Shown: piece by piece, positions 2-61,291 of the stretch
How positions within the stretch are numbered: position 1 is the stretch's first letter
Layout of the letters: each line of letters starts with the position of its first letter
From: a virus
Taxonomy: Duplodnaviria > Caudoviricetes
Virus record (IMG/VR): IMGVR_UViG_3300025413_001239
Length of the DNA stretch: 64,000 nt
Reading direction: 5' to 3' (one strand)
The notes under the pieces: model-generated
Seen by the model: the letters and a program-made list of their open reading frames with translations, nothing else
What the model was told of the DNA's origin: nothing
Databases searched by the model: none
Made by a program: the position numbers and the translations under genes

Positions 2-1030
2 TCTGTTAAGGAACTTATTAAATCTCAAAAAAGTGGTTATACCGTATCATTGAAAGAAGTAGTTGATGGCAAATTGACAGGTAAAACTGTAAATAGAAAA
101 ATTGACGGTGCTACTACATGGACCCCAGGTGACAAATTGGCATTCGAGAGTCTTTCTGGATTCACTGATGTAGTTTCTACTAGAGATTTCAATAACCAAA
201 TGTGTGCTGTAATGGTAACCATTAAGGAATATGCGCTTAAGCATGACAAAGAAGTGTCGAACATACTTAAAGCGGCATATGAAGGTGGTAATCAAATCAA
301 GACAAGTGATGAATGGTTACATGCGGCTTCTGATGCGGTAGCTAAGACATACAACTTTGAAAATGGTAAGTACTGGTACGACATGTTTAAGGGTCAAAAA
401 GGTACTAAAGAAGGTCTTGATTATAGTGTTGGTGGTAGTAAGGTGTTTAACTATGCTGATGCTTTGCAATACTTTGGTATCTCTGATGGTGTTAATCGTT
501 ATAAATCAGTATATGACCAAATCTCTAAATACTTAGTTGAGTTAAATCCATGTGATTTCAATAAGACATGTAAATCTGGTCCATTAGCTTATGATGATGC
601 TGTTAATTTGTACTTCTTGAAGTCTATTAATGATGTTCATACAGGTAAAAAGGATAGTGTTAGTTATGCTGAAAATAAGACAACTGTAATGGCTGATGGT
701 AACTGGAAGATAAACTTTGCAACTGGTAGTTCAACTATTAGTGAATCATCTTCAAAGGACTTAGAAACAATTTACAACTTATTAATTCAAGCTGAAAATA
801 CTAAACTTAAGATTATTGGCCACACCGATAATGTAGGAAATCCAGATGCTAATTTGACATTGTCTAAGGGTCGTGCAAATTCAGTAGCACAATACTTGAA
901 AGATAAAGGGGTTCCATCTGAAAGGTTCCAATTAGTGGATGGTGCTGGTGATACACAACCTGTAGCTGATAATAGCACCGCTGCTGGTAAAAGTAAGAAT
1001 CGCAGGACTGAAATTCAATTATTAAAATAA
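2..1030 (+). CDS. ABC-type substrate-binding protein with C-terminal OmpA domain (5' truncated by window edge)
   Basis: Frame open to the window edge; C-terminal OmpA motifs IIGHTDNVG, LSKGRANSVAQYL, NRRTEI; lies upstream of ABC permease and ATPase. Confidence 0.8.
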   Translation, partial: SVKELIKSQKSGYTVSLKEVVDGKLTGKTVNRKIDGATTWTPGDKLAFESLSGFTDVVSTRDFNNQMCAVMVTIKEYALKHDKEVSNILKAAYEGGNQIKTSDEWLHAASDAVAKTYNFENGKYWYDMFKGQKGTKEGLDYSVGGSKVFNYADALQYFGISDGVNRYKSVYDQISKYLVELNPCDFNKTCKSGPLAYDDAVNLYFLKSINDVHTGKKDSVSYAENKTTVMADGNWKINFATGSSTISESSSKDLETIYNLLIQAENTKLKIIGHTDNVGNPDANLTLSKGRANSVAQYLKDKGVPSERFQLVDGAGDTQPVADNSTAAGKSKNRRTEIQLLK

Positions 1031-2358: not shown

Positions 2359-3132
2359 ATGAATAAAGTATTTAAGCCATTTGAGTTTATATCAGAAACC
2401 ACAAAGCGAACTATCATGCTTGGGTTTATCGGGTTAGTATTAGGGTTTTGGGTGGTAATGTCGGCAACATCAACAACTCATCTATTTCCCTCAGTTAAGC
2501 AAGTATTCGCAGGATTCTCAGACTTGTATGCTGATGGACTTGTGGTCCATGTATTTAGCTCATTAGGGCTGTTTTTAAAGGCTACACTCATCTCAATCAT
2601 AGTTTCTCTCATTCTTTGTTATTCTGCCCCAATTTCGGCTCTTAGACCCATAGCGGTATTTGTTTCTAAGCTAAGGTATTTACCATTAACAGGTATATCA
2701 TTTTATATTGCAATTTTGGTTCATGAAGCTAGGTCTGTTCAAGTCTGGATTCTAGTTGTGTTTATGACAACATTCCTCACAACTAGTCTTTTACAAATGC
2801 TTACTGATATTCCCGAAGAAGAATTAGACCATGCAAGAACACTTGGTTGCAGCCGATGGGAAATATTACTTGAGGTAGTTATAAAAGGTAGATTAGACTA
2901 TGTATTTGAAATGGTAAGACAAAATTTAGCTATGATTTGGATGCTTCTTGTATCAATTGAGAGTATACTTGCATCAGCTGGTGGTATCGGGTTTCTTATC
3001 AAAAATAATGACAAGTTAGGTGATAACGGCAAAGTAATTGCTTTGCAAATTATCATAATAGCAATTGGTGTTTTTTTAGATTTCACATTAACAAAACTAC
3101 GTAAATTAATCTTCAGATACTCAAATTTTTAA
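2359..3132 (+). CDS. ABC transporter permease (TauC/SsuC-like)
   Basis: Multiple TM helices; EAA-like loop EEELDHARTLGCSRWEILLEVVI. Confidence 0.9.
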   Translation: MNKVFKPFEFISETTKRTIMLGFIGLVLGFWVVMSATSTTHLFPSVKQVFAGFSDLYADGLVVHVFSSLGLFLKATLISIIVSLILCYSAPISALRPIAVFVSKLRYLPLTGISFYIAILVHEARSVQVWILVVFMTTFLTTSLLQMLTDIPEEELDHARTLGCSRWEILLEVVIKGRLDYVFEMVRQNLAMIWMLLVSIESILASAGGIGFLIKNNDKLGDNGKVIALQIIIIAIGVFLDFTLTKLRKLIFRYSNF

Positions 3133-3134
3133 AA

Positions 3135-3974
3135 ATGAATTATACATCAACCGATACAATTTTATACCTTGATAAGGTTAGCGTGGGTTATAAAGATAAA
3201 AATGACCACAGCAAAGTAAATATGATACTTAAAGACGTATCATTGGAAGAAAAAGACATTCACCGTGAAGGTCATTCAGCTACTGGTCAAACAATAGCCT
3301 TTATTGGTCGTTCAGGTCGTGGTAAATCAACACTTTTTAAGGCCTTAACTGGTCTGTTGAAACCTACAAGTGGTAAAGTACTTATCATGGATGGTAACCC
3401 TAATATTCATAATTCAGCTAAAGAAGTTGCTGAGGGCGATGTTGGATTTGTTGACCAGAAGTATACGCTTTTTCGTCATAAAACTCTCACCCAGATTCTA
3501 CATTATGCGATGCGCAAGATAAACAAGACCAAACAAGAAAAGGATGCTATTATTGATAGTTATTTAGCTGATTGGGGTCTTGCTGAACATAAGGATAAGT
3601 ACCCTTGTGAACTATCAGGTGGTCAAAGGCAACGTACAGCGATACTTGAACAGATGCTTACATCTAAGCACTTTATCGTGTTGGATGAACCAGCATCGGG
3701 ACTTGATGTTTACGCAATCGAAAAGATGAAATCGTCATTTAATAAAATTTTATCTGATGATGAATTGAATACTATTATCTTTAGCACTCACGACATTAAA
3801 TTAGCCGTTGAAATGGCTGATAGTATTTATGTAATTGGTCGTCCAGAAGGTGTGGAATACAGTACTATTTTAAGACATTTTGATTTAAAACAAATGGGTA
3901 TTGCTTGGCAAGAGTATGGAAATGCTCATAGACAATTAACTCAAGATATTAAAAGTTTATTACTTAATTCTTAA
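3135..3974 (+). CDS. ABC transporter ATP-binding protein (TauB/SsuB-like)
   Basis: Walker A GRSGRGKST, signature LSGGQRQR, Walker B IVLDEP, H-loop STHD. Confidence 0.95.
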   Translation: MNYTSTDTILYLDKVSVGYKDKNDHSKVNMILKDVSLEEKDIHREGHSATGQTIAFIGRSGRGKSTLFKALTGLLKPTSGKVLIMDGNPNIHNSAKEVAEGDVGFVDQKYTLFRHKTLTQILHYAMRKINKTKQEKDAIIDSYLADWGLAEHKDKYPCELSGGQRQRTAILEQMLTSKHFIVLDEPASGLDVYAIEKMKSSFNKILSDDELNTIIFSTHDIKLAVEMADSIYVIGRPEGVEYSTILRHFDLKQMGIAWQEYGNAHRQLTQDIKSLLLNS

Positions 3975-5934: not shown

Positions 5935-6005
5935 GGTTCTATAGCTCAACGGCAGAGCTGGACTCTCTAAAAGTCTTGATGTTGGTTCGATTCCGACTAG
6001 AATCA
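5935..6005 (+). tRNA. Amber suppressor tRNA (anticodon CUA)
   Basis: Full cloverleaf: GGTTCTA/TAGAATC acceptor, GCTC/GAGC D stem, GGACT-CTCTAAA-AGTCT anticodon arm (CTA at 5967-5969), GTTGG-TTCGATT-CCGAC T arm, A73; own promoter at ~5900. Confidence 0.9.
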
Positions 6006-6053
6006 CACTTTACATTTTTTAACAATTATTGTATATTTATAAAAAAAAGAAAT

Positions 6054-7385: not shown

Positions 7386-7411
7386 AAAGGGAGAAGAAAT
7401 TCTCCTTTTTT
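7386..7411 (+). terminator. Intrinsic terminator
   Basis: AAAGGGAGAA-GAAA-TTCTCCTTT plus T run. Confidence 0.7.
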
Positions 7412-7471
7412 ATTTGGTAGTGTTAAGTAAATACCATATATTTGCATTTTATTAAACATAAAATTATACGC

Positions 7472-9442
7472 ATGAAAAATTTACTTACATTGATTTGCTT
7501 ATTAGTAACATTTCAATTAATCGCACAAGACACAATTAAGTCAAAGACTCTAGAACCAATACAAATTACTTGTGTTAGGGCTGATAAGAAAATCCCAGTA
7601 ACACAAAAAACGCTCTCCGATTCGGCTATTCAAGCGAATTATCAGGGTCAAGAAATACCTATGTTGTTAGGTTCTCAAACATCAATTTACACGAATTGTG
7701 ATGGTGGTCATAACGCTGGTTATAGTTACTTTAGCATCAGGGGTATTGACCAAACAAGAATAAACATAACTCTTAATGGTGTTCCATTGAATGAAGGTGA
7801 AGACATGGCTTGTTATACGTCTAATTATCCAAGTTTTACCAGCGCAATTCAATCTATGCAAATTCAACGTGGTGTGGGTACATCATCTAACGGCGCATCA
7901 TCCTTCGGTGGCTCATTGAACTTTCAAAGCAAGGATGGCCTTATTAAGGGTACTGATATTCAAATAGGTGGTGGTTCATTTAATACATCAAGATTTGACA
8001 TATCCACATCCACAGGTTTATCCAAACACAAATTAGCCTTATTCGCTAATATTGGTGGTATACAAACTGATGGCTTTAGAGATAATTCAGGTTGTAAGGG
8101 TGGTTCCGCTTTTGTGAGTCTTGGTTACTTCGGGAAGTCTAGTATTACAAAACTTAACCTATTAACAGGAATATCACAAAACAAACAAGCTTGGATGGGT
8201 TCAAGTGATTCAGCATTAGCAGCTAATTATCGTGATAACCCAAGAGGTGGTGATAATATGGATAATTTCAATCAAACGAATGTTCAATTGCAGAACATAA
8301 CAATGTTTAATACACGGTTTAAATTAACCAGCACTGCGTTTTATAATTACTTAGATGGTCACTATAATGTGTTTAACTTAAAGGATATACCAGTTAATAA
8401 TTATTTTGCATACGAAAGCCAGTATTCACGATGGATTGGTGCGGTAACTCAATTAGATTATAACTATGGTGATTTTAAGGTTACTTCAAGCCTTTCAGCC
8501 AGTACTTATACGAGGTTCCATAATGGTTATGAGATTTACGATACAACACTTACTGAATATCCCTATACTAATAGTGGTAAAAAGAATGATGCAAATGCAT
8601 TCATAAAGTTTAGTTATGACACTAAAAGAGTCTTGTATTATATCGACTTACAAGAAAGATTTGTTGATTATAAGTACTCTGGTGATACAAGTGTTTATCA
8701 AAGCTGGAAGTTCTTTAACCCAAAGGCTGGTGTTAAGTTCTTCATAAACAAGAGTTTGGATGTGTATTGGAGCGTAGGTTTATCTCATAGAGAACCAACA
8801 CACTCAATAATGCTTAATGGTTGGTTGTACTTAAACTCTTATAATCCGATTACAATAGTTAAGCCTGAGGAAGTAATTGATAATGAAATAGGTGTAAATT
8901 ACACGTCAAGTAAACTAAAATTACAAGCTAATGTTTATGTAATGAAATTTACGAATGAAATGATAGCTGCTGGGCCGATGGGTAATAACAGTCTTCCTAT
9001 TATGATGAATGTTCCTAATAGTCTAAGATATGGCTTCGAATTTGATTGTACTTATAAAGTAAATAAGTCGTTTACTTATGATATTAATTCAACATTATCT
9101 AATGGTCAGTTTAAAGTTGATAGCGGTACGTATAGCTACTTATTTAATCCAAATTTTATGTTTAAGCATTCGATTAACTATACACATAATAAGTTATTTG
9201 TAAGCCTTAATCAAGCATATATTTCAAGAGTTTACATTGATAAGGCTAATCAATTTACTTTGCCAATATCATCTACAATCGGTTTGAATCTTGGATATAC
9301 CTTTGGTCGTTATCAAGTATCAATTCAGGGTAACAATTTAACAGGTGAGAAGACTTATAGCAATGGTTCAGTTACTGGTGTTAGGTATAGAATACCTAAC
9401 GCTTTACAAAATTACTTCATAACCCTTAAAATACACTTATGA
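7472..9442 (+). CDS. TonB-dependent outer-membrane receptor
   Basis: Signal peptide MKNLLTLICLL..; plug motifs FSIRG, RINITLNGVPLN, IQRGVGTSSNG..GGSLNF; beta-barrel body. Confidence 0.9.
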   Translation: MKNLLTLICLLVTFQLIAQDTIKSKTLEPIQITCVRADKKIPVTQKTLSDSAIQANYQGQEIPMLLGSQTSIYTNCDGGHNAGYSYFSIRGIDQTRINITLNGVPLNEGEDMACYTSNYPSFTSAIQSMQIQRGVGTSSNGASSFGGSLNFQSKDGLIKGTDIQIGGGSFNTSRFDISTSTGLSKHKLALFANIGGIQTDGFRDNSGCKGGSAFVSLGYFGKSSITKLNLLTGISQNKQAWMGSSDSALAANYRDNPRGGDNMDNFNQTNVQLQNITMFNTRFKLTSTAFYNYLDGHYNVFNLKDIPVNNYFAYESQYSRWIGAVTQLDYNYGDFKVTSSLSASTYTRFHNGYEIYDTTLTEYPYTNSGKKNDANAFIKFSYDTKRVLYYIDLQERFVDYKYSGDTSVYQSWKFFNPKAGVKFFINKSLDVYWSVGLSHREPTHSIMLNGWLYLNSYNPITIVKPEEVIDNEIGVNYTSSKLKLQANVYVMKFTNEMIAAGPMGNNSLPIMMNVPNSLRYGFEFDCTYKVNKSFTYDINSTLSNGQFKVDSGTYSYLFNPNFMFKHSINYTHNKLFVSLNQAYISRVYIDKANQFTLPISSTIGLNLGYTFGRYQVSIQGNNLTGEKTYSNGSVTGVRYRIPNALQNYFITLKIHL

Positions 9443-9981
9443 TAGAGTTTATTGGTGCTTTATTCACGCTTTTATCAGCATATTATACTGTAAAAGAAAA
9501 GGTCATTTGTTGGCCGTTAGCGATAGCATCAACGATTATCTACATATATTTACTATATATTGAGAAATTGTATGGTCAGGTATTTGTCGATATATTAACG
9601 TTATTTCAATGCGCTTACGGTTGGTATTATTGGGATAAAACTGATAATAAGCAGCCTGAAAGACTTAAACCCATTAAGTTTGTTAGAGATATATTTCTTT
9701 TAGTTCTAATATCTAGTATTACAATATACTACATAAGAACATATACTAATAATCCACAACCAGTATCGGATATTACGTCAACATACTTAGCACTTTTAGC
9801 TAATTGGTATTTAGCTAAGAAGTTTATTGATGGGTTTTATGTTTGGGTTATAGCCGATATAATACTAGCGTATATGTTTTATTATCAACATATGTATTGG
9901 TCAATGGGTTTATTTATTATTTTAATAGGGTTCGCCCTTCAAGGTCAATTCGCATGGCAAAAGAGTTTAAAAACGGACTAG
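9439..9981 (+). CDS. pnuC: PnuC-family nicotinamide riboside/vitamin transporter
   Basis: TM pattern; WPLAI, LYGQ, YGWYYW, W-x-LAKKFIDGFYVWVIAD motifs. Confidence 0.9.
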   Translation: MIEFIGALFTLLSAYYTVKEKVICWPLAIASTIIYIYLLYIEKLYGQVFVDILTLFQCAYGWYYWDKTDNKQPERLKPIKFVRDIFLLVLISSITIYYIRTYTNNPQPVSDITSTYLALLANWYLAKKFIDGFYVWVIADIILAYMFYYQHMYWSMGLFIILIGFALQGQFAWQKSLKTD

Positions 9982-10955
9982 TACTTGGGAAATGTTTTCC
10001 ATTTCACTTAGGACATAAATATCTTATTGATTCAGCAATTAAGCAATGTGATACGGTTCACGTTATGGTTTGTTCACTTAAACGTGAAAATATAGCTGGT
10101 GAATTACGTTATGAATGGGTTAAAGAAACATATATGAATAACCCTAGTGTGAATGTTATTCATTGTGATGATGAAAATCCTCAACATCCACCAGAATGTG
10201 CTAGTGTTGATGAATTTTATAATAAGTATTGGGTACCGACTGTATACAAGCATGTTAAGGAACTGGATGTTGTATTTACTTCTGAGGATTACGGTGATGA
10301 ATTTGCCAGTTACTTAGGTGTTAAGCATGTGCTTGTTGATAAAGCTAGAACAGCTTATCCTGTATCTGGAACTTCGGTTAGAGAGAATCCTTATGCAAAT
10401 TGGGATTTAATACCTGATAATGTTAAAAAATACTTTATTAAAAAGATTGTTATTTTAGGTCCTGAATCTGTTGGTAAATCAACGATGGTTAAAAAGTTGG
10501 CTGAGCATTTGGGTTGTAAGTATATCGATGAGTTCGGTAGGACTTATACTGAATTAACTGGAACTGATAATCTTCAAATATTTGATTTTGAAGCGATAGC
10601 TCATTGGCATAATCATCATATTGAAAAGGCTGAAATTGATAAGTACTTAATAATTGATACAGAAGCGATTACAACTAAGATATTTGCTGAAATGTACTTA
10701 GGTAAACGTGAAAGTGAATCTAAATTCATAGATGAAATCATAAGTGAGCAACATTTCGATTTATACTTAGTGCTAAACGTTGATGTTCCTTGGGTTGATG
10801 ATGGTACAAGAGACTTTCCAGAGGGTCGTGAAGAGCATCTAAACACTATTATCTCTAATTTAGAGGAAAGAGGTTTAGAATACAAGCTTATTAGCGGTGA
10901 TAATTACGATGAAAGATTTGAAAAAGCCTTAGAAGAAGTTAAAAAGTTGGGATGA
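9954..10955 (+). CDS. nadR: NadR-like NMN adenylyltransferase / ribosylnicotinamide kinase (no HTH)
   Basis: GKCFPFHLGH nucleotidyltransferase motif, VSGTSVR, P-loop GPESVGKST, PWVDDGTR; likely start 9954. Confidence 0.9.
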   Translation: MAKEFKNGLVLGKCFPFHLGHKYLIDSAIKQCDTVHVMVCSLKRENIAGELRYEWVKETYMNNPSVNVIHCDDENPQHPPECASVDEFYNKYWVPTVYKHVKELDVVFTSEDYGDEFASYLGVKHVLVDKARTAYPVSGTSVRENPYANWDLIPDNVKKYFIKKIVILGPESVGKSTMVKKLAEHLGCKYIDEFGRTYTELTGTDNLQIFDFEAIAHWHNHHIEKAEIDKYLIIDTEAITTKIFAEMYLGKRESESKFIDEIISEQHFDLYLVLNVDVPWVDDGTRDFPEGREEHLNTIISNLEERGLEYKLISGDNYDERFEKALEEVKKLG

Positions 10956-10958
10956 CAT

Positions 10959-12194
10959 TTAAATAACAATTAAATCGTTATTTATTTGATTACGGACATT
11001 ATTGTTCATAATCACACTAGTGTAATCCAGTGGCTTTGTCATTGAAGCAAGGTGATTGTCGTAATATCTTTTCATTATGTTGATAGCTGAGTTTAAATCT
11101 CTATCTATTTCGACATTATCACTTAGTTTAACAGTTCTATCCTTTAACTCAACTTTATCTTTAAATAGCTTACCAGTAAGACTATTCAATTGAGTGGTGT
11201 ATTTTTCATCAATCTTAATTAAATCACATTGTTTATTTTGTGACTTATACTTAAGAAATTCTAAGAACATATTAATATTAGATTCATTAAATGATTTTCT
11301 AATACCCTTTTTATTCTTATTTACTCCTTCTGTTGACATAAGGGTTTTTACTGTTAAATCGCCAACTACAATTGTTTTGTAGTTCATATTCACTAATTTT
11401 TTACTCTGAATATGTAGAGTTTGTTTAATTTGACTATTCTTCTTATTATATAGTTTTCTTTTAACTTTATTTAATTTATTAAAGGATTTACTATTCTTTT
11501 GTTTTTTGCTTAACTTAGACTTAATCTTATTAATCTGTTTACCGAAGTACTGATTAATCCTCTTTGATTTATTTTTAAGAATAACAACGGTACCATTGTT
11601 ATCCACACCAGTACCTAAATTCTTTAGACCTAAATCAATAGCGAGTACTCTTGATTTAATTATTAAATCATCTGAGTAGTTTATTTTATCATCGACAACA
11701 ATATCACAAAGCCACTTATTATTAATAAATTTGACTCTAATTTCTTTAATATTTAATTCAGATAAGTTTGTTAAATGACTTGAATATTTAAAATTAATTT
11801 TATTTATTGAAATTATACTATTTTCTTTGAATATCCAACCATTTAGGTTAAAAACTAATGTATGATACTTTCCGAGTTCTTTTGTCTTTGGTGGTCTAGC
11901 TGTATTATCTTTTTTAATAAGTGTGAAGAAAGATTGGTATGATTGAAATATTTCAGCTGCCACAACTTGTGCTGCTTTTGCATTAAATTGTTTCCAAGAT
12001 TCCTTGGTTGAATATTTCAATGGTGGAATGAGGTTAATTAAATCAAACTTTGAGTATACCTTTTTAGTTGATTCATAGTGTTTTTGCTGAATATCAATAA
12101 GAGTGTTCCAAATATCCATACGAATATCAGACAACTGTTTTAGTTGAGATACCTGTTCTGTTGTTGGGTGTAACCTTATTGAGTATGTTTTCAT
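10959..12194 (-). CDS. tnpB: Solo TnpB-family RNA-guided nuclease with rearranged RuvC-II and no Zn finger
   Basis: YSIRLHPTTEQ N-terminus, AIDLGLK, VVGDL (G at canonical E), IDEKYTTQ, DRDLNSAINI. Confidence 0.85.
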   Translation of the reverse strand: MKTYSIRLHPTTEQVSQLKQLSDIRMDIWNTLIDIQQKHYESTKKVYSKFDLINLIPPLKYSTKESWKQFNAKAAQVVAAEIFQSYQSFFTLIKKDNTARPPKTKELGKYHTLVFNLNGWIFKENSIISINKINFKYSSHLTNLSELNIKEIRVKFINNKWLCDIVVDDKINYSDDLIIKSRVLAIDLGLKNLGTGVDNNGTVVILKNKSKRINQYFGKQINKIKSKLSKKQKNSKSFNKLNKVKRKLYNKKNSQIKQTLHIQSKKLVNMNYKTIVVGDLTVKTLMSTEGVNKNKKGIRKSFNESNINMFLEFLKYKSQNKQCDLIKIDEKYTTQLNSLTGKLFKDKVELKDRTVKLSDNVEIDRDLNSAINIMKRYYDNHLASMTKPLDYTSVIMNNNVRNQINNDLIVI

Positions 12195-12308: not shown

Positions 12309-13169
12309 ATGATTTCAAATATAAGAAAAATTTTAAGGGAAAACGTTGATAAAACGATAACTTGTCAGAAGTGTGGTTGGCATTGGAAAGAGTCTGAATC
12401 TTCAAAAGAAGAGATGTATAAGTGCCATAAGTGTGGCCATGATAATAAACTACCAAGACCATTTGTTGACCCAAACCAATTATCATTATTTGAATCGTTA
12501 AGGTCTAAAGTACTTAACAAAAAGCCTCTAAATGAAAAACTCTTATTAAAGAGTTGGGATGAATATGCTAAACTAGTAACCAAAGCATACGCTGAGGCAC
12601 CAGAATACGAATCAGATGCTGTAAGGCATTGGAACGCTCTTAATCAATCCAATTATACACTATTTAAAAGGCTTTTAAGTAAAATCAATGTACTTTTTGT
12701 TACGGTAGATAAATCTAAAGTTGGTGGTGTGAATATTCTTGGTAGAAACTATAAGATAATATATCAAGCTGGCGAACCATACGCAACTCAAAGTGAAATG
12801 AAAGCTGATTTACAAAAAACAGGGACACTTAAAATTAATATAGATTATTCTGACCATCCTATTTTTTCTGTTGAAGATAATATAGTATTTAGAACAGTAC
12901 ATGATTATATTGTTCATATCTTAGGTAATAAACAATTTGGTGCACAAGGTGAAATAGCTTCATATAATTTACACGCTAAATTAGTACCTAGAGAAGCTAT
13001 ACCAGCCATATTTACAGAGGTTGTTGGTCAAGCATGTACTAGGGTTGTAACTGGTAGTTTCCCAGTACAAAAAATTGCAATTCTTAAAGGTTTCGATTAT
13101 CTAAATATTGGTAAAGTTGAAGACTATGAAATAAAAAATAAAGAATTAGATTTGACTAATCCAAAATAA
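12309..13169 (+). CDS. Hypothetical phage protein with N-terminal Zn ribbon
   Basis: CQKCG...CHKCG; FRTVHDYIVH..GEIASYNLH motif. Confidence 0.6.
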   Translation: MISNIRKILRENVDKTITCQKCGWHWKESESSKEEMYKCHKCGHDNKLPRPFVDPNQLSLFESLRSKVLNKKPLNEKLLLKSWDEYAKLVTKAYAEAPEYESDAVRHWNALNQSNYTLFKRLLSKINVLFVTVDKSKVGGVNILGRNYKIIYQAGEPYATQSEMKADLQKTGTLKINIDYSDHPIFSVEDNIVFRTVHDYIVHILGNKQFGAQGEIASYNLHAKLVPREAIPAIFTEVVGQACTRVVTGSFPVQKIAILKGFDYLNIGKVEDYEIKNKELDLTNPK

Positions 13170-13260: not shown

Positions 13261-14124
13261 ATGCGAACATTTTGGAAGACTGAAGAAGTTGAATTATTAA
13301 AAGAATTGTATGAAAATCAAGGTTTGTCGATAAGTGAATTGTATCCGATTTTTAGTTTGAGATTTAATAGAACTTTAGATAGTGTTAAAGTTAAAATGGG
13401 TAAACTTAAACTAAAACATACTAAAGAACAAATAGCTAAATTAAAATCAAGGTTGAATTCTGGTGAATTAAATGGGATGTACAATAAAACATCTGCAATG
13501 AAGGGGTTAACTAAAGAAAATTCTGAAATTGTTAGATTAAAATCAGAAAAAACGTCTAAAACTAGAATAGAAATGTATAAAAAAGGATTATTACCAGATG
13601 TATCTGGGGAAAATAATCCAATGTTCGGGGCAACTCCTTGGTCGAAAGGTAAAACAAAATTTAATGATATTAGATTATATAATATTGGGATTAAAAGTTC
13701 AATTAGTAAAAAAGAATTGTGGTTAAAGAAAACTAATGAGGAAAAAGAAATCATAATAAGAAGATTAAATGATGCTATGATTCAAGTTAGGAAACCAACT
13801 AAAATTGAATTAAAAATGGTCGATTATTTAAGTAAATTAGATATTGAATTTATTAAAAATTTTAGAATAAAGAATTTTTTAGTTGATTTTTATTTACCTA
13901 ATAATAATTTAGTTATTGAATGTGACGGTGATTATTGGCATGCAAATCCATTAATTTATGAAGGAAAAGAGTTAGATAAGATTCAACTAAAAAATCGTAA
14001 CAGAGATAGAAAAAAGGAAGAAATGTTAATAAAATCCAACATTAATCTTGTTCGTTTTTGGGAATTTGATATTAAAAATCATTTTGAAAGTGTTGAACAG
14101 AAATTATTAACAATGTTAAAATAA
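13261..14124 (+). CDS. Homing endonuclease, NUMOD3-like repeats plus Vsr/DUF559-type nuclease
   Basis: GELNGMY, GENNPMFG repeats; VDFYLP..VIECDGDYWH..RFWE. Confidence 0.8.
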   Translation: MRTFWKTEEVELLKELYENQGLSISELYPIFSLRFNRTLDSVKVKMGKLKLKHTKEQIAKLKSRLNSGELNGMYNKTSAMKGLTKENSEIVRLKSEKTSKTRIEMYKKGLLPDVSGENNPMFGATPWSKGKTKFNDIRLYNIGIKSSISKKELWLKKTNEEKEIIIRRLNDAMIQVRKPTKIELKMVDYLSKLDIEFIKNFRIKNFLVDFYLPNNNLVIECDGDYWHANPLIYEGKELDKIQLKNRNRDRKKEEMLIKSNINLVRFWEFDIKNHFESVEQKLLTMLK

Positions 14125-14128
14125 ATAT

Positions 14129-15271
14129 ATGATAGATAAAATTGGTATTAGATATACGTTTAAGATTTCGGTACCACTAGATGTTTTAAAGATAAAAGAA
14201 GTTTTTACTAAGAATGGTCATCAACTATTTCTAGTTGGTGGTTGTATTCGTGATACCATATTAAATGTAACACCTAAAGATTTTGATTTAGTTACAAATG
14301 TTTCGCCAGAAGAGGTTATTAGAATTTTAAAGCATGAAAAGTTTGTTACAACAATATTAGAAACTGGAAAATCATTTGGTGTTATTAATGTTATAACTAG
14401 CGATAATGAATTTGAAATTGCTACGATGCGCAATGATGTGTTTAGTGATACACCAAATGGGAGGCATCCAGACCGTGTTATCTTTGGTGATATTTTTACT
14501 GATTGTATGCGAAGGGATTATACCATGAATGCGCTTTTTTATGACTTAGATACTAATGAAATAATTGACTTCGTTAATGGTGTTAATGATATTGAAAAAT
14601 CTTTAATTAAGGCGGTTGGGAATCCAGAAGAAAGATTTAAAGAAGATAAATTACGCAAACTTAGGGGCGTTAGGCTGGCGGCCAGATTTGGCTCTGAATT
14701 GGACCCTGAGATTGATGCCGCATTAAAAAGAGATGCCAGTCTGGAAGGTATATCTGGTGAAAGAATCAGAGATGAGTTTATAAAGGGTATCAAATCAGCT
14801 AAGTCAGTTGTTAAATTCTTGGAAATGCTTGATAGGTATCATTTATTTAATTGGATATTTAAGGGCTTACATGTAAATAAAGACTTTATTGAGGATAGAA
14901 ATGTTGTAGTTCTTATTGCTATTTTATTAAAGGGTAACAACATAGGTGTTATAGCTAAGCAATTGAACAATCTTAAGTATTCTGTTGATGAGATTAAATC
15001 AATCACATTCTTATTGAGTTTATTGCATTTAACACCTGAGACAGCAGTTGCTTTAAAGAGACAACAAAAGAACGCTTACACATCAAATCATCAAATAATT
15101 GATTTTGCTAACCGTGAAGGTTTAAATACAAGATTGATACATGCGTTTTTAAATTTTGAGTTGACCGTTACTGGCGAAGAAGTTATGCAAAAGTTCAATT
15201 TGAAGCAAGGCAAAGAGTTAGGTGATATGATAAATAAATTGGAATTGGATAATTTTAAAAAAAGTTTGTAA
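14129..15271 (+). CDS. cca: CCA-adding tRNA nucleotidyltransferase / poly(A) polymerase family
   Basis: LVGGCIRD, KDFDLVT, RRDYTMNAL, EDKLRKLRGVR, ERIRDE; tRNA genes in the window lack encoded CCA. Confidence 0.9.
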   Translation: MIDKIGIRYTFKISVPLDVLKIKEVFTKNGHQLFLVGGCIRDTILNVTPKDFDLVTNVSPEEVIRILKHEKFVTTILETGKSFGVINVITSDNEFEIATMRNDVFSDTPNGRHPDRVIFGDIFTDCMRRDYTMNALFYDLDTNEIIDFVNGVNDIEKSLIKAVGNPEERFKEDKLRKLRGVRLAARFGSELDPEIDAALKRDASLEGISGERIRDEFIKGIKSAKSVVKFLEMLDRYHLFNWIFKGLHVNKDFIEDRNVVVLIAILLKGNNIGVIAKQLNNLKYSVDEIKSITFLLSLLHLTPETAVALKRQQKNAYTSNHQIIDFANREGLNTRLIHAFLNFELTVTGEEVMQKFNLKQGKELGDMINKLELDNFKKSL

Positions 15272-17275: not shown

Positions 17276-18568
17276 ATGAAGTGTATTAAAACAAGGAAAA
17301 TTCAGTTGTTGCCATTAGGTGATTTTAATGAAACCTACAAATACGTTAATAATTTAAGTTCAGGCTTAGCGTCACTCGGTAATGAAATGATAAGGAGACA
17401 TGTTTTATCATTTTATGAAATGGACGTACTAAAAGATTCAACTCCAGATGCTAAAACTAGAACTAATCTAATGAAGGAAAAATACGGAATGTCACTCCAA
17501 AATATGGGTTATGATGTTTCAAAAAAGTATTCAGCCACAATTCCTTCGAATATTCGCACAACATTTAATCAAAAGGTCTTTAAAAAAATAAAAGACAGTT
17601 ATTTTGGTATTTCAATAAATAAAGAATCTATACCATCATTCAGAAAAGACTCAATGGCAATTCCATTTAGTTATGATAATAATATCAGTTTGAACGAATT
17701 TGGGGTGTATGATTTTAAATTCTTTAATAATGTCAATTTTAAATTAAACTTTGGACGTGATAGGTCTAATAATAAAGTTATCATTGACAGAATTTTATCT
17801 AATGAATATAAGCCATTATCTTCACATATAAAAATTGATAAGAAAAAAATATTCTTAGATTTAACATATTCTTTTGACTCAGATGAAAATGTTAACATAT
17901 CTAAAGATAAAATTGTTGGTGTTGATTTAGGTATAAATAGACCTATGACAATTGCTAGGGAAGATGGTACTTATGCAAAACAAATAGAAATCGGTGGTAA
18001 GATTCAATACTCTAGATTATCAATTCAAAAACAAAGAAGAAGCTTACAAAGTGCTTTAAGGCATTCATCTGGTGGTCATGGTACTGGTAAAAAAATAGCT
18101 AAATTAAAATCATTAAAAGATTATGAACATAATTTCATGAAAACCACTAATGATACACTAAGTCGTGAATTAATAAAATATTGCGTTAATGAAGGTGTTG
18201 GTGTAATTAAATTAGAAAATCTAACTGGTATAACAGAAAATGCTAATAATTTTCTTAAGTCTTGGTCTTATTATCAATTACAACAAATGATTGAGTATAA
18301 AGCTGCTGAATTTGGAATTACAGTATTATATGTTAATCCTAGATATACCTCTCAAACTTGTCCAACTTGTGGCAATATTGATAAAACTCAAAGAGATTCA
18401 AAGGATAAAACAAAATTTGCTTGTTCAAATGAAATTTGTTCTGATATTAATATAAATAAAGATGCTGATATTATTGGTGCCTTTAATATCTCAAAAAGAG
18501 ATGGTGTTATCGCTTCTAAAAAAATATTACAAGAAAAAAGTGATAAAAAGTTGTTAGTTTCAGAATAA
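17276..18568 (+). CDS. Compact type V CRISPR effector (Cas12f/TnpB-like, 430 aa)
   Basis: RuvC triad GVDLG, IKLENL, KDADIIGAFNI; Zn finger CPTC..CSNEIC; KTRKIQL N-terminus; immediately upstream of anti-repeat and CRISPR array. Confidence 0.85.
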   Translation: MKCIKTRKIQLLPLGDFNETYKYVNNLSSGLASLGNEMIRRHVLSFYEMDVLKDSTPDAKTRTNLMKEKYGMSLQNMGYDVSKKYSATIPSNIRTTFNQKVFKKIKDSYFGISINKESIPSFRKDSMAIPFSYDNNISLNEFGVYDFKFFNNVNFKLNFGRDRSNNKVIIDRILSNEYKPLSSHIKIDKKKIFLDLTYSFDSDENVNISKDKIVGVDLGINRPMTIAREDGTYAKQIEIGGKIQYSRLSIQKQRRSLQSALRHSSGGHGTGKKIAKLKSLKDYEHNFMKTTNDTLSRELIKYCVNEGVGVIKLENLTGITENANNFLKSWSYYQLQQMIEYKAAEFGITVLYVNPRYTSQTCPTCGNIDKTQRDSKDKTKFACSNEICSDININKDADIIGAFNISKRDGVIASKKILQEKSDKKLLVSE

Positions 18569-21694: not shown

Positions 21695-22258
21695 ATGATA
21701 CATACAATTGCCCATTTATTAGGTATTAAACTTGAAGGTTCTGAGTGTTCCGCCGAGATTGAAAAGAAAGTTGTTGAACAACTGGAGAAAGTTCCTTACA
21801 TTCAATACCCGACAGCTTTCCATACGGTAGACATCATTGCTACTCGTCAAGGTGAATCTGGTTTTGAATTGCTATTAGGTCGTAAACACAAATCCACTGA
21901 ATGGGTTTTCATTGGTGGTTTTGTTGAACCAAAACAAACAGCTGAAAGTGCTGCCTTGCGTGAATTACACGAAAAAACTAATATCCTTATCGAGAATGAA
22001 TCAAGACTGGTTTATTTAGGTTCTCATTTCATTGATGATGCAAGATACAAGGATTCTTGTCATAAGATTTCAACCAGCCTATTTACAATTCAATTAACCG
22101 ATGAAGAAGCTGCGCAAGCTAAAGGTGGTGACGATATTTCAGAAACCAAATGGCTTAAATTGGGTGAAATTGAAGTTAACTTAAAAGAACATCATAGAGT
22201 TTTGCTTTATAAGTTTTTAATTAGTACTTCAAAATGGCATCATTCACATAATCTTTAA
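21695..22258 (+). CDS. Nudix hydrolase (NadM-associated ADP-ribose pyrophosphatase-like)
   Basis: YPTAFHTVD, GGFVEPKQTAESAALRELHEKT Nudix box, GGDD..W. Confidence 0.8.
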   Translation: MIHTIAHLLGIKLEGSECSAEIEKKVVEQLEKVPYIQYPTAFHTVDIIATRQGESGFELLLGRKHKSTEWVFIGGFVEPKQTAESAALRELHEKTNILIENESRLVYLGSHFIDDARYKDSCHKISTSLFTIQLTDEEAAQAKGGDDISETKWLKLGEIEVNLKEHHRVLLYKFLISTSKWHHSHNL

Positions 22259-27581: not shown

Positions 27582-28109
27582 TTAAGCAATAAACTTAAAT
27601 GAATTAACACGATTTAGCCATCCCTTAAGGAATTTACCTTGTGCTGGGTGGTGTGCAACGATGTCATTATAATACTTGGTCCTAGATGCTTTGATTTTAT
27701 CAAATAATTCGCTTTGATTAGCCTTATTGATAGCTTCAACACTTTTAGGTCCAAATACACCATCAGCAGTTATACCAAGGCATTGTTGCGTTTTGATAGC
27801 AGCAGTACCCACACCACAGTTATAAGCAAAATCTACAATCATTTCTGTAATTGATTGGTTAGTAATTGAATCCCCACGAAGTCTATCCCAGTAATGTGCC
27901 TTAGCGATGCTCATAGCATCTTCAGCTGTAATAAGTTTAAGGTCATCAACATCAATGTCACCATCACCGTCTTTATCATAACCCTTAGCTTTCCATTCGG
28001 AAAGAATCACACCATACTTAGTCTCTTTTCCATTGTCGCCAGGTACACATTCGAATGAACTTCCCTCAAATTGTACTAATTTAGGAAAATATTTTTTAAA
28101 ATCACTCAT
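27582..28109 (-). CDS. Endolysin, glycosyl hydrolase 108 with peptidoglycan-binding tail
   Basis: EG..D.G..TKYG, DFAYNCG, ADGVFGPKS, FLKGWLNR. Confidence 0.9.
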   Translation of the reverse strand: MSDFKKYFPKLVQFEGSSFECVPGDNGKETKYGVILSEWKAKGYDKDGDGDIDVDDLKLITAEDAMSIAKAHYWDRLRGDSITNQSITEMIVDFAYNCGVGTAAIKTQQCLGITADGVFGPKSVEAINKANQSELFDKIKASRTKYYNDIVAHHPAQGKFLKGWLNRVNSFKFIA

Positions 28110-31407: not shown

Positions 31408-31455
31408 TTTTGGTGGATTAAATAAAATCCCTTACATTTGCTGAAAATAAAAATA

Positions 31456-33051
31456 ATGGAAAAGTATATAACAGCAATGTTCGCTTACCCATCTGGTAGT
31501 GGACTTCATATTGGGCATTGGTATAATTATGCCATTGTGGATTCATATTGCAAAGTACAAAAATACAAGGGTAATCAAGTGTTTCAACCGTTTGGTTGGG
31601 ATTCATTTGGTCTTCCTGCTGAGAACTACGCTAAAAAAGTTGGTCGTAACCCTAAAGAGGTTACGGAAGAAAATATTGTTTCGTTTGAAAATGAGATGAA
31701 ACGAATGAATACTTCATTCGATATTAAGTTCTCAACACATTCTGAGGAGTATCAAGAGCGCACTCAATGGCTTTTTAATAAGCTTAAAGAACATGGCCTT
31801 GCATATAAGGCTAAACGTGCGCAATGTTATTGCCCATCGTGTGAAACTGTTCTTGCAAATGAACAAGTTAAGAATACTAAAGTAGTGTCTGGTCTTCCTG
31901 ACGATGGCAACTGTGAACGTTGTAATACAAAAGTTACTGTCGTTGAAAAAGAACAATGGTTCTTTAAGATAACAGCTTATGCTGACCGTCTTATTGAAGG
32001 ACTTAACACAGTTGATTACCCTAATAAGACAAAAAAGCAACAAATAGAATGGATTGGTAAATCTGAGGGCTATGAAATAGACTTCGGTAACGGTGTCGTA
32101 GTGTTTACTACAAAGCCTGAAACAATCCTTGATGTTGAGTTTATCGTTGTACCTCTTGAAGAAGATGGTATCGAAAAACAAATAGGTGAAGCAACATGCC
32201 CAGTCAGCGGTAAAACTATTCCTATTTGGACAGCCAATTATGTTATTAAGGGTTACGGTACTGGTTACGTTATGGGTGTTCCTAACGATGATAAGAGGGA
32301 CCGAGACTTCGCTATCAGACATGCAATCGAATTTAATGAAGATAAAAGCAATATCTCAGATGAATCGTTTGTGAAGACTTTTGCTAAACCTAAGACTAAT
32401 TACAGACTTAAGGATTGGTGTGTATCGAGGCAAAGAAGCTGGGGTTGTCCTATTCCTGTTGAGGATGAAACAGATACGCTTGACACGTTTGTAGATAGTT
32501 CATTTTATACTATTGAATACGATAAGACAAGACCTGTTGATGTTTATGTTGGTGGTAACGAACACGCATGTGGTCATTTGATTTTTTCCAGATTTATCTG
32601 TAAATTTTTATTTGATATTGGTTATATTGATTTCGATGAACCATTTAAACAAGTGATTCATCAAGGTATGATACTTGGAACCGATGGTGAGAAGATGTCT
32701 AAATCTAAGGGTAATGTAATTAACCCTGATAGCTATTCACCTCAATTATTAAAAATGTATCTAATGTTTATAAACCATTATTTTGATGGCGGTAAATGGC
32801 AAGATAACGGATATAAAGGTTGTGAAAGATTTAAAAATAAATTATTTAACTGGCTTAATACAGCTGAGGATAACATTACCGATACAATTGATTTTTATAA
32901 ATTTGAATCAGTTATTTTAGACTATTGGGATAGATGGAAAACAAATAAAGTTGTTTCGGAATGGATGGTTTTTTATAATAACAATAAAGATAAAAAAATT
33001 AGCAAAGAGATGGCTACAAAAATAGAGTATTTCTTCAATACTTGTTTTTAA
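31456..33051 (+). CDS. leuS: Leucyl-tRNA synthetase, shortened form
   Basis: MFAYPSGSGLHIGH, GWDSFGLPAENYA, WCVSRQRSWG, DTFVDSS, YVGGNEHA, KMSKS. Confidence 0.9.
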   Translation: MEKYITAMFAYPSGSGLHIGHWYNYAIVDSYCKVQKYKGNQVFQPFGWDSFGLPAENYAKKVGRNPKEVTEENIVSFENEMKRMNTSFDIKFSTHSEEYQERTQWLFNKLKEHGLAYKAKRAQCYCPSCETVLANEQVKNTKVVSGLPDDGNCERCNTKVTVVEKEQWFFKITAYADRLIEGLNTVDYPNKTKKQQIEWIGKSEGYEIDFGNGVVVFTTKPETILDVEFIVVPLEEDGIEKQIGEATCPVSGKTIPIWTANYVIKGYGTGYVMGVPNDDKRDRDFAIRHAIEFNEDKSNISDESFVKTFAKPKTNYRLKDWCVSRQRSWGCPIPVEDETDTLDTFVDSSFYTIEYDKTRPVDVYVGGNEHACGHLIFSRFICKFLFDIGYIDFDEPFKQVIHQGMILGTDGEKMSKSKGNVINPDSYSPQLLKMYLMFINHYFDGGKWQDNGYKGCERFKNKLFNWLNTAEDNITDTIDFYKFESVILDYWDRWKTNKVVSEWMVFYNNNKDKKISKEMATKIEYFFNTCF

Positions 33052-60457: not shown

Positions 60458-60527
60458 GAAAAAGATTTGGGGGTATAGAAATATACCCCTATATTTGCAT
60501 TATTAAATAACACATAAAATACAGATT

Positions 60528-61235: not shown

Positions 61236-61291
61236 AAAATAAATTTGGGGGTATAGAAATATACCCCTATATTTGCATCAAATTAATAATT

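What the first reader, a model, noticed from the sequence alone, without database searches (positions are those of the whole stretch)
7472..10955. Phage operon for importing and activating an NAD precursor: TonB receptor + PnuC + NadR
Seen: three overlapping genes behind one host-type promoter, with no riboswitch-like leader. Established: PnuC with NadR imports nicotinamide riboside and converts it to NAD; Bacteroidota pair TBDRs with Pnu transporters for vitamin uptake; Thoeris and SIR2-type defences deplete NAD and phages carry NAD-reconstitution pathways. Inference: a route that rebuilds NAD from extracellular precursor across both membranes, possibly as counter-defence. A phage-borne TBDR is itself unusual.
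Basis: partly seen in the sequence, partly recalled or inferred. Interest (0 to 1): 0.75.

Follow-up and report, generated by a model that had tools for sequence, protein, structure and literature searches.

The report
Phage NAD-precursor import operon with receptor
A very large phage of Bacteroidota-type bacteria carries an intact three-gene operon (outer-membrane TonB-dependent receptor, Pnu inner-membrane channel, NadR enzyme) that most likely takes up nicotinamide riboside and turns it into NAD; this extends the recently published two-gene phage pathway NARP3 by a dedicated outer-membrane receptor.

Summary
Three translationally coupled genes (7472-10955) follow a terminator and a Bacteroidota-type promoter, with a leader of about 27 nt and no riboswitch.

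The same trio occurs in all 10 sampled lineages of related huge T4-like phages (contigs of 345-380 kb, one genome of 635 kb).

The receptor belongs to a family that in cells consists mostly of thiamine receptors behind TPP riboswitches. The phage receptors are, with 100/100 support, sister to the small Bacteroidota subgroup that sits beside a full-length NadR and has no riboswitch. The phage NadR groups with true bifunctional NadR enzymes, has all catalytic motifs and lacks the HTH domain.

The Pnu channel is the weak link. It forms its own deep clade outside the NR-PnuC clan that contains E. coli PnuC (experimentally characterised) and a NARP3-type phage PnuC, so its substrate rests on its partners.

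The best reading is NR uptake across both membranes followed by conversion to NAD (about 0.72). A counter-defence role is untested.

Novelty is limited. Phage PnuC+NadR is published (NARP3, 2026; jumbo phages, 2024). An October 2026 preprint lists TonB-dependent receptors in huge phages and mentions NMN-transporter genes among the neighbours of phage outer-membrane-protein genes.

First readers of this scan also noted the trio or a close variant (two with an intervening helicase gene, one NadR-receptor-Nudix) on other genomes.

The parts
7386..7409 (+). Terminator-like hairpin plus T-run that closes the upstream 99-aa gene and isolates the operon
   Evidence: 10-pair stem, T-rich tail; sequence
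7413..7444 (+). Bacteroidota-type promoter: TTTG (7413-7416), 20-nt spacer, TATATTTG (7437-7444). It ends 27 nt before the ATG
   Evidence: pattern TTTG-N18-21-TAnnTTTG occurs 35 times against 3.9 expected, 32 on the + strand; sequence
7472..9442 (+). TonB-dependent outer-membrane receptor, 656 aa: signal peptide, TonB-box-like LEPIQITCVRA, plug and large beta-barrel. It belongs to the NadR-linked offshoot of the thiamine-receptor family
   Evidence: Plug; AF2 pTM 0.74; Foldseek PqqU 9c4o TM 0.79, YncD, FhuA; trees; pairwise scores
9439..9981 (+). Pnu-family facilitator, 180 aa, 7-TM core only. FxxWxxxD form of the WxxW(x)3D/N motif; gate tryptophans W65 and W173. Substrate inferred to be nicotinamide riboside
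   Evidence: (profile against 4QTN, 6e-16)
9954..10955 (+). NadR-type bifunctional NMN adenylyltransferase / ribosylnicotinamide kinase, 333 aa, no HTH domain
   Evidence: PRK08099 201.4 bits against cut-off 201; TIGR01526 236.7 against 341; 8x7f 8.6e-48 and 1lw7 2.3e-36, end to end; motifs GKCFPFHLGH, VSGTSVR, GPESVGKST, IIDTE, WVDDGTR; tree
10959..12194 (-). TnpB / IS605 OrfB-type gene that abuts the operon's 3' end. It is a boundary, not part of the pathway. Most relatives have the CCA-adding enzyme gene here or close by
   Evidence: OrfB_IS605, Cas12f1-like_TNB; synteny in relatives

Best explanation
A captured and long-retained bacterial vitamin-B3 salvage operon. Host RNA polymerase transcribes the three genes from one Bacteroidota-type promoter, and overlapping stop and start codons couple their translation. 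(1) The receptor is exported, inserted into the host outer membrane and energised by the host's own TonB-ExbBD. It captures nicotinamide riboside (possibly also NMN or NAD) from dilute surroundings. (2) The Pnu protein lets the riboside diffuse across the inner membrane. (3) The kinase domain of NadR traps it as NMN, and the adenylyltransferase domain converts NMN to NAD. The infected cell thereby gains an NAD supply that most hosts cannot provide. Shown here: gene integrity, coupling, promoter type, absence of a riboswitch, conservation across the phage lineage, and phylogenetic affinity of the receptor and NadR. Inferred: the substrates, membrane insertion, TonB dependence, and the purpose (feeding the phage's NAD needs and/or outrunning NAD-depleting defences, as shown for two-gene NARP3).
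For: Intact genes and coupling. The promoter class is nine-fold enriched and on the coding strand. No riboswitch.

The trio is present in 10 of 10 sampled phage lineages, including LR745206 (635 kb), IMG/VR contigs and contigs of 345-378 kb.

Phage nature: a T4-type Gp23 capsid gene in LR745206 and G003, plus tRNA genes, homing endonucleases and PHROG hits.

Receptor: careful tree with phage clade 100/99, cellular NadR-linked clade 100/100, and the two together 100/100, nested among TPP-riboswitch receptors. Pairwise scores are higher to NadR-linked receptors than to TPP-linked ones for all 6 phages. A TPP riboswitch precedes 25 cellular relatives but none of the NadR-linked loci that were scanned (L014, L017, L024, L025) and none of the phage loci.

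NadR: it groups with full-length cellular NadR (support 97) and away from the TPP-linked kinase-only proteins. It aligns end to end with solved NadR structures with all motifs present.

Full NadR was found in only about 14 of 401 sampled Bacteroidota genomes, and this receptor type beside it in 4 of those. A phage therefore needs to bring all three parts.

Published function of phage PnuC plus HTH-less NadR: PMC13464706.
Against: The Pnu protein is not inside the anchored NR clan (E. coli PnuC, NARP3-type PnuC and 11 of 14 Bacteroidota NadR-linked PnuCs; 100/97). Its sister position to that clan is weak (79/43; 87/76). Class HMMs score it 9-44 bits better against the TPP-linked set. Pairwise scores slightly favour TPP-linked proteins in 5 of 6 phages. 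Published NR-contact positions do not discriminate between the classes.

The receptor family is ancestrally a thiamine-receptor family. NadR misses the TIGR01526 cut-off (236.7 against 341). The plug region of the model has low confidence. There are no expression or biochemical data.
Confidence: 0.72

Rival explanations
1. The operon is specifically a counter-defence device (an envelope-spanning NARP3). Its selective value is to refill NAD after Thoeris, Sir2, DSR or similar NADases fire, rather than general metabolic support.
For: The two-gene PnuC+NadR module restores NAD and rescues phages from Sir2-HerA in an NR-dependent way (PMC13464706). Like Bas30_86, the phage NadR lacks the HTH domain. 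Early host-type promoter.
Against: Nothing in the window links the operon to a defence system. A fixed, syntenic position next to tRNA-maturation genes across a whole lineage fits a housekeeping auxiliary gene as well. Uptake from picomolar environmental NR may be too slow to outrun an NADase. Relatives also carry a NAMPT-family gene, which would suit recycling better.
Confidence: 0.3
2. The transporter pair is thiamine-type (OMthi/PnuT-like) or takes another cationic vitamin, and NadR is only a neighbour that serves internal NMN-to-NAD conversion.
For: Most cellular members of this receptor family sit behind TPP riboswitches. The phage Pnu scores better against TPP-linked Pnu proteins and lies outside the NR clan. 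Relatives have a NAMPT-family enzyme that could feed NadR's NMNAT domain.
Against: No TPP riboswitch in the window or in any of 6 phage loci. No thiamine kinase or pyrophosphokinase in the cluster. The 28-nt Pnu/NadR overlap is conserved in the lineages where it was measured (the window, L001, L125, L126, L127), though other sampled lineages have shorter overlaps or intervening ORFs. The receptor is sister to NadR-linked receptors, not TPP-linked ones (100/100). The kinase domain groups with true NadR, not with TPP-linked kinases. The ML position of the Pnu clade is next to the NR clan, never inside a TPP clade.
Confidence: 0.1
3. The receptor mainly remodels the cell surface (superinfection exclusion or receptor masking), as proposed for phage outer-membrane proteins in general. 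Transport is secondary or lost.
For: This is the discussion in bioRxiv 10.64898/2026.10.24.761521. The window also encodes an OmpA-domain protein just upstream. No phage TonB was found.
Against: Strict translational coupling to a channel and a trapping enzyme in 10 of 10 lineages. 105 invariant columns across receptors that are 38-83% identical to the window's, including plug residues and the TonB-box region. The cellular sister clade has the same operon layout.
Confidence: 0.06
4. The stretch is bacterial DNA (host island, mis-binned or chimeric contig) and not phage-borne.
For: All three genes have cellular homologues with the same layout.
Against: The identical locus was assembled independently in at least 13 contigs from JGI, ENA and Logan, the longest listed at 343 kb. 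The nearest cellular receptors are only about 35% identical. The flanks are phage-like (tRNAs, homing endonucleases, PHROG families). Relatives include a curated 635-kb phage genome and IMG/VR contigs with T4-type capsid genes.
Confidence: 0.02

Closest known systems
NARP3 (phage PnuC-like Bas30_87 + HTH-less NadR-like Bas30_86; Sci Adv 2026, PMC13464706)
   Same: A phage-borne Pnu transporter next to a bifunctional NMNAT/RNK NadR without an HTH domain. The expected chemistry is NR to NMN to NAD.
   Different: A third, translationally coupled gene for a TonB-dependent outer-membrane receptor. Gene order is Pnu then NadR (it is NadR then PnuC in the T5-like phage Bas27). The host is of Bacteroidota type, not Enterobacteriaceae. 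The Pnu protein is a minimal 180-aa form outside the clan that holds the NARP3-type PnuC. NadR is only about 31% identical to the T5-like phage NadR. No functional data.
Cellular Bacteroidota TBDR-PnuC-NadR operons (e.g. Chitinophaga filiformis DSM 527, L025; Porphyromonas MAG, L017; G154, G246, G358)
   Same: Same three genes in the same order, no TPP riboswitch. The receptors and the NadR proteins are the sister clades of the phage ones.
   Different: About 35% receptor identity. Their PnuC lies inside the NR clan whereas the phage Pnu does not. They are chromosomal and rare (about 4 of 401 sampled genomes). I found no paper that describes this cellular operon.
Bacteroidetes thiamine uptake operon (TPP riboswitch - OMthi TBDR - PnuT - kinase)
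   Same: Same receptor family and same Pnu family. Outer-membrane receptor plus facilitator plus trapping kinase is the same logic.
   Different: TPP riboswitch present there and absent here. The kinase there is a single-domain protein of a separate clade. Here it is a two-domain NadR with an NMN adenylyltransferase.
Huge-phage outer-membrane proteins / TonB-dependent receptors (bioRxiv 10.64898/2026.10.24.761521; 'SusC' in Mar_Mega_1 and LR745206, bioRxiv 10.1101/2021.07.26.453748)
   Same: 22-stranded TBDRs encoded by phages of more than 200 kb. NMN-transporter genes are listed among the genes next to 10- to 22-stranded phage OMP genes. One Lak TBDR is transcribed.
   Different: Those papers give no pathway, substrate or origin for this receptor type. 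One reads a megaphage TBDR as carbohydrate uptake; the other favours surface remodelling. LR745206 has two TBDRs, so the published 'SusC' may be the other one.
NAD synthesis clusters of gut jumbo phages (Microbiome 2024, PMC11662467) and the KVP40 NadV/NatV salvage pathway
   Same: Phage-encoded NAD salvage. pnuC was found in 68 of 174 'NAD-jumbo phages', and a pnuC-nadR-nadM cluster is described.
   Different: No outer-membrane component is mentioned. Different phage lineage and habitat.

Membership tests
TonB-dependent receptor (TBDR) | N-terminal signal peptide and TonB-box-like strand | tested here: met
   MKNLLTLICLLVTFQLIAQ then DT. LEPIQITCVRA aligns with the family consensus LxxVxIxGVRA. 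The TonB box was identified by eye and not tested functionally.
TonB-dependent receptor (TBDR) | Plug domain | tested here: met
   Pfam PF07715 9.1e-11, 42.7 bits against a cut-off of 23.9, covering 3-106 of 107 profile positions.
TonB-dependent receptor (TBDR) | Full-size (about 22-strand) beta-barrel | tested here: met
   AF2 model with pTM 0.74 and barrel pLDDT mostly 75-90. Foldseek top hits are full-length TBDRs at TM 0.73-0.79 and E down to 7e-42. Pfam's barrel model does not hit the window protein, but it hits most relatives.
TonB-dependent receptor (TBDR) | Energised by a TonB-ExbBD system | not testable with these tools
   No TonB_C gene in LR745206 (complete) or in two partial relatives. 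A host system would have to serve.
NR-linked (non-thiamine) subgroup of the vitamin TBDR family | Groups with receptors adjacent to full-length NadR, apart from TPP-riboswitch receptors | tested here: met
   Careful tree 100/100; quick tree 99; pairwise scores.
NR-linked (non-thiamine) subgroup of the vitamin TBDR family | No TPP riboswitch upstream | tested here: met
Pnu transporter family (PF04973) | Family profile match over the 7-TM core | tested here: met
   PF04973 7.6e-33, covering 3-175 of 175. Phage profile against 4QTN, 6e-16.
Pnu transporter family (PF04973) | WxxW(x)3D/N motif in TM6 and gate tryptophans at the ends of TM3 and TM7 (PMC5749112) | tested here: met
   FYVWVIAD in the window (W to F at the first position; W159F was tolerated in PnuT). 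WxxWxxxD in other phages, apart from lineage variants such as L126. W65 and W173 are invariant.
NR-specific PnuC (as in E. coli, N. mucosa, Bas30_87) | Membership of the clan that holds characterised NR transporters | tested here: not met
   The NR references plus 11 NadR-linked PnuCs form a clan (100/97). The phage Pnu clade is outside it, and only weakly its sister (79/43; 87/76).
NR-specific PnuC (as in E. coli, N. mucosa, Bas30_87) | NR-coordinating residues (Bas30_87 N45, Q94, N180; NmPnuC Q, Q, N, Y) | tested here: inconclusive
   These positions vary inside the NR clan itself and do not separate it from TPP-linked proteins. The phage clade has T/S, C/S and D/N, plus its own near-invariant Q57 one residue away.
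NadR (bifunctional NMNAT / ribosylnicotinamide kinase) | NMNAT domain with (H/T)xGH-type and ISxxxxR motifs | tested here: met
   GKCFPFHLGH and VSGTSVR align to GKFYPLHTGH and ISGAQIR of 8x7f.
NadR (bifunctional NMNAT / ribosylnicotinamide kinase) | RNK domain with Walker A, Walker B and lid | tested here: met
   GPESVGKST, IIDTE and WVDDGTR are aligned. AAA_28 5.7e-25.
NadR (bifunctional NMNAT / ribosylnicotinamide kinase) | Curated family cut-offs | tested here: inconclusive
   PRK08099: 201.4 bits against a cut-off of 201 (just met). TIGR01526: 236.7 against 341.15 (not met).
NadR (bifunctional NMNAT / ribosylnicotinamide kinase) | N-terminal HTH repressor domain (enterobacterial trifunctional form) | tested here: not met
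   The match starts at PRK08099 profile position 63 and the protein begins 4 residues before it. Same as Bas30_86 of NARP3.
NARP3 | Adjacent phage genes for a Pnu transporter and an HTH-less NadR | tested here: met
   definition from PMC13464706.
NARP3 | NR-dependent restoration of NAD and rescue from NAD-depleting defence | not testable with these tools
   Needs experiments.
Thiamine uptake operon (OMthi-PnuT-kinase) | TPP riboswitch leader | tested here: not met
   Present in 25 cellular relatives.
Thiamine uptake operon (OMthi-PnuT-kinase) | Thiamine-trapping kinase (TPK or single-domain NadR-like kinase) | tested here: not met
   The kinase is the C-terminal domain of a two-domain NadR, which groups with true NadR.

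The most novel reading that the evidence does not exclude
Nicotinamide riboside (or NMN/NAD) is a so far unrecognised substrate class for TonB-dependent transporters. A whole lineage of 345-640 kb phages installs such a receptor in the host outer membrane and so builds a host-independent, three-compartment vitamin-B3 pipeline: in effect an envelope-spanning NARP3. This lets the phages keep NAD up, including against NAD-depleting immunity, in dilute waters and in hosts that lack any NR salvage.
Probability: 0.45. Interest if true: 0.7.

Novelty: new variant of a known kind. Interest (0 to 1): 0.55.

Why it matters
If the receptor really takes up an NAD precursor, it would add vitamin B3 to the short list of TonB-dependent substrates. 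It would also show that phages can equip a Gram-negative host with a complete import route through both membranes, not only with cytoplasmic enzymes. It would explain what at least one class of the recently catalogued huge-phage TonB receptors is for. It corrects the likely default annotations (iron-complex receptor; possibly 'SusC'). It also gives a clean way to tell NR-type from thiamine-type receptor operons: a full two-domain NadR and no TPP riboswitch, against a single-domain kinase and a TPP riboswitch. For phage-defence biology, it predicts that NARP3-like rescue in Bacteroidota depends on the outer-membrane step.

Tried and rejected
There is therefore no whole-genome inventory and no expression evidence.
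- megablast of 20 kb of the window against phage records found nothing.
- The single Pnu sequence against the PDB found no Pnu structure. A 6-sequence profile was needed to reach 4QTN.
- The sigma-70 consensus scan is uninformative in this AT-rich DNA (29 sites against 32.8 expected) and was replaced by the Bacteroidota motif.
- Class-specific HMMs for Pnu proteins classified all 33 cellular sequences correctly in leave-one-out, yet scored the phage proteins higher on the TPP-linked model. I do not read this as thiamine specificity. The TPP set spans several phyla and gives a more permissive profile, and the trees do not nest the phage clade in any TPP clade. It stays as evidence against.
- The D/N position of the WxxW(x)3D/N motif was considered as a discriminator and rejected. 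D is the rule in both NadR-linked and TPP-linked proteins.
- TAG recoding, suggested by a tRNA with anticodon CTA and the TAG stop of the Pnu gene, has no support in this window.
- A search for a phage TonB found none.
- A NAMPT-family gene seen in relatives has no counterpart in the window.
- One family scan failed on wrong coordinates and was repeated.


Full report
**1. What is there**

The coordinates given run exactly from the start codon of a TonB-dependent receptor gene to the stop codon of a NadR gene.
- The receptor (7472-9442, 656 aa) begins with a typical signal peptide. Pfam recognises it only through its Plug domain (9.1e-11).
- The second gene (9439-9981, 180 aa) matches the Pnu transporter family over its whole length (PF04973 7.6e-33; TIGR01528 62.2 bits against a cut-off of 42.45).
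- The third gene (9954-10955, 333 aa) matches NadR from profile position 63 onward, so it has no HTH domain (PRK08099 201.4 bits against a cut-off of 201; TIGR01526 236.7 against 341).
- Receptor and Pnu overlap by ATGA. Pnu and NadR overlap by 28 nt.

Upstream, a hairpin with a T-run (7386-7409) closes the previous gene. TTTG-N20-TATATTTG follows at 7413-7444. This Bacteroidota-type promoter pattern occurs 35 times in the window against 3.9 expected, and 32 of the 35 are on the coding strand. It is therefore a real promoter class of this genome, and it points to a Bacteroidota-type host.

Only about 27 nt separate the -7 box from the ATG. They do not fold. No Rfam family matches at gathering score or at E<=1.

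**2. Is it a phage?**

No whole genome is held for the window. The evidence is as follows.
- The identical receptor protein is on at least 13 independently assembled contigs, the longest listed at 343 kb. Proteins 83-84% identical are on contigs of 355-379 kb.
- The DNA matches the 634,780-bp 'uncultured phage' LR745206.1. The protein finds IMG/VR contigs.
- LR745206 and the 70%-identical IMG/VR relative carry T4-type Gp23 capsid genes.
- The window itself has four tRNA genes, three TnpB genes, homing endonucleases, a CCA-adding enzyme, an endolysin-like gene, a split LeuRS gene and many PHROG-only families.
- The nearest cellular receptors are only about 35% identical.

I treat the phage context as established. 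Earlier notes of this scan on the same genome say the same; I used them only as a lead.

**3. How constant is the trio?**

I sampled ten lineages of the phage receptor clade (38-100% identity). They are the window, LR745206, two IMG/VR contigs and six metagenome contigs, including ones of 345, 366 and 378 kb. All carry receptor, Pnu and NadR in this order. Several have the same 28-nt Pnu/NadR overlap, and most have the CCA-adding enzyme gene downstream. One lineage has three small ORFs between Pnu and NadR. In the window a TnpB element and two further ORFs separate NadR from the CCA enzyme gene.

**4. NR-type or thiamine-type?**

A scan of one genome per species with a receptor profile gave 80 cellular loci. 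They split cleanly.
- In 25 loci a TPP riboswitch sits directly before the receptor. Where a 'NadR' hit is present there, it is a single-domain kinase.
- Four Bacteroidota loci (Hymenobacter, Chitinophaga, a Porphyromonas MAG and a Saprospiraceae MAG) have no riboswitch and a full two-domain NadR.
- No phage locus has a riboswitch.

A sample of 401 Bacteroidota genomes gave full NadR in about 14. Of 13 fetched loci, 12 have PnuC-NadR and three of those also have this receptor.

*Receptor tree.* In the careful tree (LG+C20 PMSF, 48 rows) the phage clade has support 100/99 and the cellular NadR-linked clade 100/100. Together they have 100/100, and they are nested among the TPP-riboswitch receptors. 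The 110-row quick tree agrees. Pairwise scores are higher to NadR-linked receptors for all six phages.

*NadR tree.* Phage plus cellular full-length NadR form a clade (support 97), apart from the TPP-linked kinases (99). NadR aligns end to end with solved NadR structures (8x7f 8.6e-48; 1lw7 2.3e-36). The NMNAT motifs, Walker A, Walker B and the lid are all present.

Two of the three genes therefore clearly come from an NR/NAD-type operon of Bacteroidota. They look like a single capture followed by long vertical descent.

**5. The weak link: the Pnu protein**

It has the family hallmarks: the FxxWxxxD/WxxWxxxD motif and both gate tryptophans. It diverges fast, with only 25-59% identity among phages.

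I added anchored references: E. coli PnuC, a T5-like NARP3-type PnuC, and PnuCs of Vibrio, Erwinia and Lak phages. These, together with 11 of 14 Bacteroidota NadR-linked PnuCs, form a clan (100/97). The ten phage Pnu proteins form their own clade (99/98) outside it.

The best trees place that clade next to the NR clan, but weakly (87/76; 79/43). Class HMMs and pairwise scores slightly favour TPP-linked proteins. The published NR-contact residues vary inside the NR clan and do not discriminate. The phage clade has its own near-invariant Gln one residue from the NR-coordinating Gln. That is suggestive only.

Its substrate is therefore inferred from its partners. A facilitator works by metabolic trapping (PMC5749112, PMC7221760), so channel and kinase must share a substrate, and the kinase here is a true NadR.

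**6. Receptor structure and energy**

The AlphaFold model (pTM 0.74; barrel confident, plug partly low) matches full-length TonB-dependent transporters at TM 0.73-0.79, with PqqU and YncD best. No TonB gene is present in the complete 635-kb relative. The host system would have to energise the receptor; this is an inference.

**7. Mechanism proposed**

Host polymerase transcribes the operon early. The receptor goes to the outer membrane and concentrates NR (or NMN/NAD) into the periplasm. Pnu lets NR through the inner membrane. NadR phosphorylates and adenylylates it to NAD.

Few Bacteroidota have NadR and fewer have this receptor, so the phage must bring all three parts.

The purpose is open between general NAD supply and counter-defence. 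Relatives also encode a NAMPT-family enzyme. The window has a Nudix protein that resembles the ADP-ribose pyrophosphatase half of NadM. A broader NAD economy is therefore likely.

**8. What is already known**

- Phage PnuC plus HTH-less NadR is NARP3. It was shown to import NR, rebuild NAD and defeat Sir2-HerA (PMC13464706). That paper does not mention TonB.
- pnuC and nadR clusters in gut jumbo phages were reported in 2024 (PMC11662467).
- NadR homologues occur in about 800 phage records.
- A 'TonB-dependent receptor SusC' in Mar_Mega_1 and LR745206 was read as carbohydrate uptake in 2021. LR745206 has two receptors, so that note may concern the other one.
- An October 2026 preprint catalogues 1,603 beta-barrel proteins in huge phages, including 22-stranded TonB receptors. 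It lists NMN transport among the functions of genes detected next to 10- to 22-stranded OMP genes.
- I found no paper that links a TonB-dependent receptor to NR uptake, in cells or in phages.

What is new here:
- the explicit three-step pathway;
- the receptor's origin as the NadR-linked offshoot of thiamine receptors;
- its constancy across a phage lineage;
- the odd position of the Pnu protein.

**9. Verdict**

It is a new variant of a known kind (NARP3 plus a dedicated outer-membrane receptor). Interest is moderate because of the two 2026 papers. First readers of this scan also noted the same or a closely related gene set on other genomes, without follow-up.

Noticed in passing
window 5935-6006 (+): tRNA with anticodon CTA, which would read TAG (ARAGORN calls it tRNA-Pyl). 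The Pnu gene ends in TAG, and a second in-frame TAG lies 10 codons on. Stop usage gives no sign of TAG recoding in this window (8 of 75 ORFs end in TAG; read-through adds little).
   Followed up: partly
window 10959-12194 (-), 17276-18568 (+), 40380-41612 (+): Three TnpB / IS605-OrfB-type genes. The first abuts the NadR stop codon. Together with two ORFs (12309-13169; 13261-14124, DUF559/REase-like) it separates NadR from the CCA-adding enzyme gene (14129-15271), which is close to NadR in most relatives.
   Followed up: partly
window 21695-22258 (+): Nudix hydrolase. Its best NCBIfam matches are the Nudix (ADP-ribose pyrophosphatase) half of bifunctional NadM-type NMNAT/Nudix enzymes (3.4e-13, far below cut-off). 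It is possibly part of the phage's NAD/ADP-ribose handling.
   Followed up: partly
L134:411-2117 (+) (IMG/VR relative G003) and L135:835-2508 (-) (LR745206): Relatives that carry the trio also encode a NAMPT/NAPRTase-family protein of about 560 aa (PRK09198 7e-36 and 2e-40, below cut-off). This suggests a second, NARP2-like nicotinamide route that would share NadR's NMNAT domain. There is no counterpart in this 64-kb window.
   Followed up: partly
window 2-1030 (+), 2359-3132 (+), 3135-3974 (+): Just upstream lie an OmpA-domain protein (605 aa on the full contig) and an ABC-transporter permease plus ATPase (nitrate/taurine/sulfonate-like permease). These are further envelope and transport genes on the phage.
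   Followed up: no
window, 35 sites (e.g. 2090, 5121, 5876, 13151, 15625, 17223): The promoter pattern TTTG-N18-21-TAnnTTTG, mostly as ...(C/G)TATATTTG, is nine-fold enriched and almost all on the + strand. Two sites (60466-60497 and 61244-61275) are identical 32-mers.
   Followed up: partly
window 31438-33051 (+) and 33064-33807 (-): A leucyl-tRNA-synthetase-like ORF (catalytic and editing domain pieces, 537 aa) is followed by a GIY-YIG homing-endonuclease gene on the opposite strand. It looks like a synthetase gene interrupted by a mobile element.
   Followed up: no
LR745206.1 about 79,335-79,634 (-), ORF 883 aa: A second, larger TonB-dependent receptor in the 635-kb phage, unlinked to the trio. 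It may be the 'SusC' noted in bioRxiv 10.1101/2021.07.26.453748.
   Followed up: no
L116, L117, L120 (Bacteroidota genomes G043, G016, G223): Three cellular PnuC-NadR loci whose Pnu protein also lies outside the anchored NR-PnuC clan. NadR-coupled Pnu proteins of non-canonical type therefore exist in cells too.
   Followed up: no
L015-L044 and others (Gemmatimonadota, Acidobacteriota, Cytophagales loci): TPP riboswitch - TBDR - Pnu - single-domain NadR-like kinase operons are widespread. The kinase forms a clade separate from true NadR. This agrees with earlier notes of this scan that it may be an unrecognised thiamine kinase.
   Followed up: partly
window 27582-28109 (-), 34275-35000 (+): A GH108 + PG_binding_3 endolysin-like gene and a TerC-family membrane protein. 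One relative (L125) has two TerD genes right after its trio.
   Followed up: no
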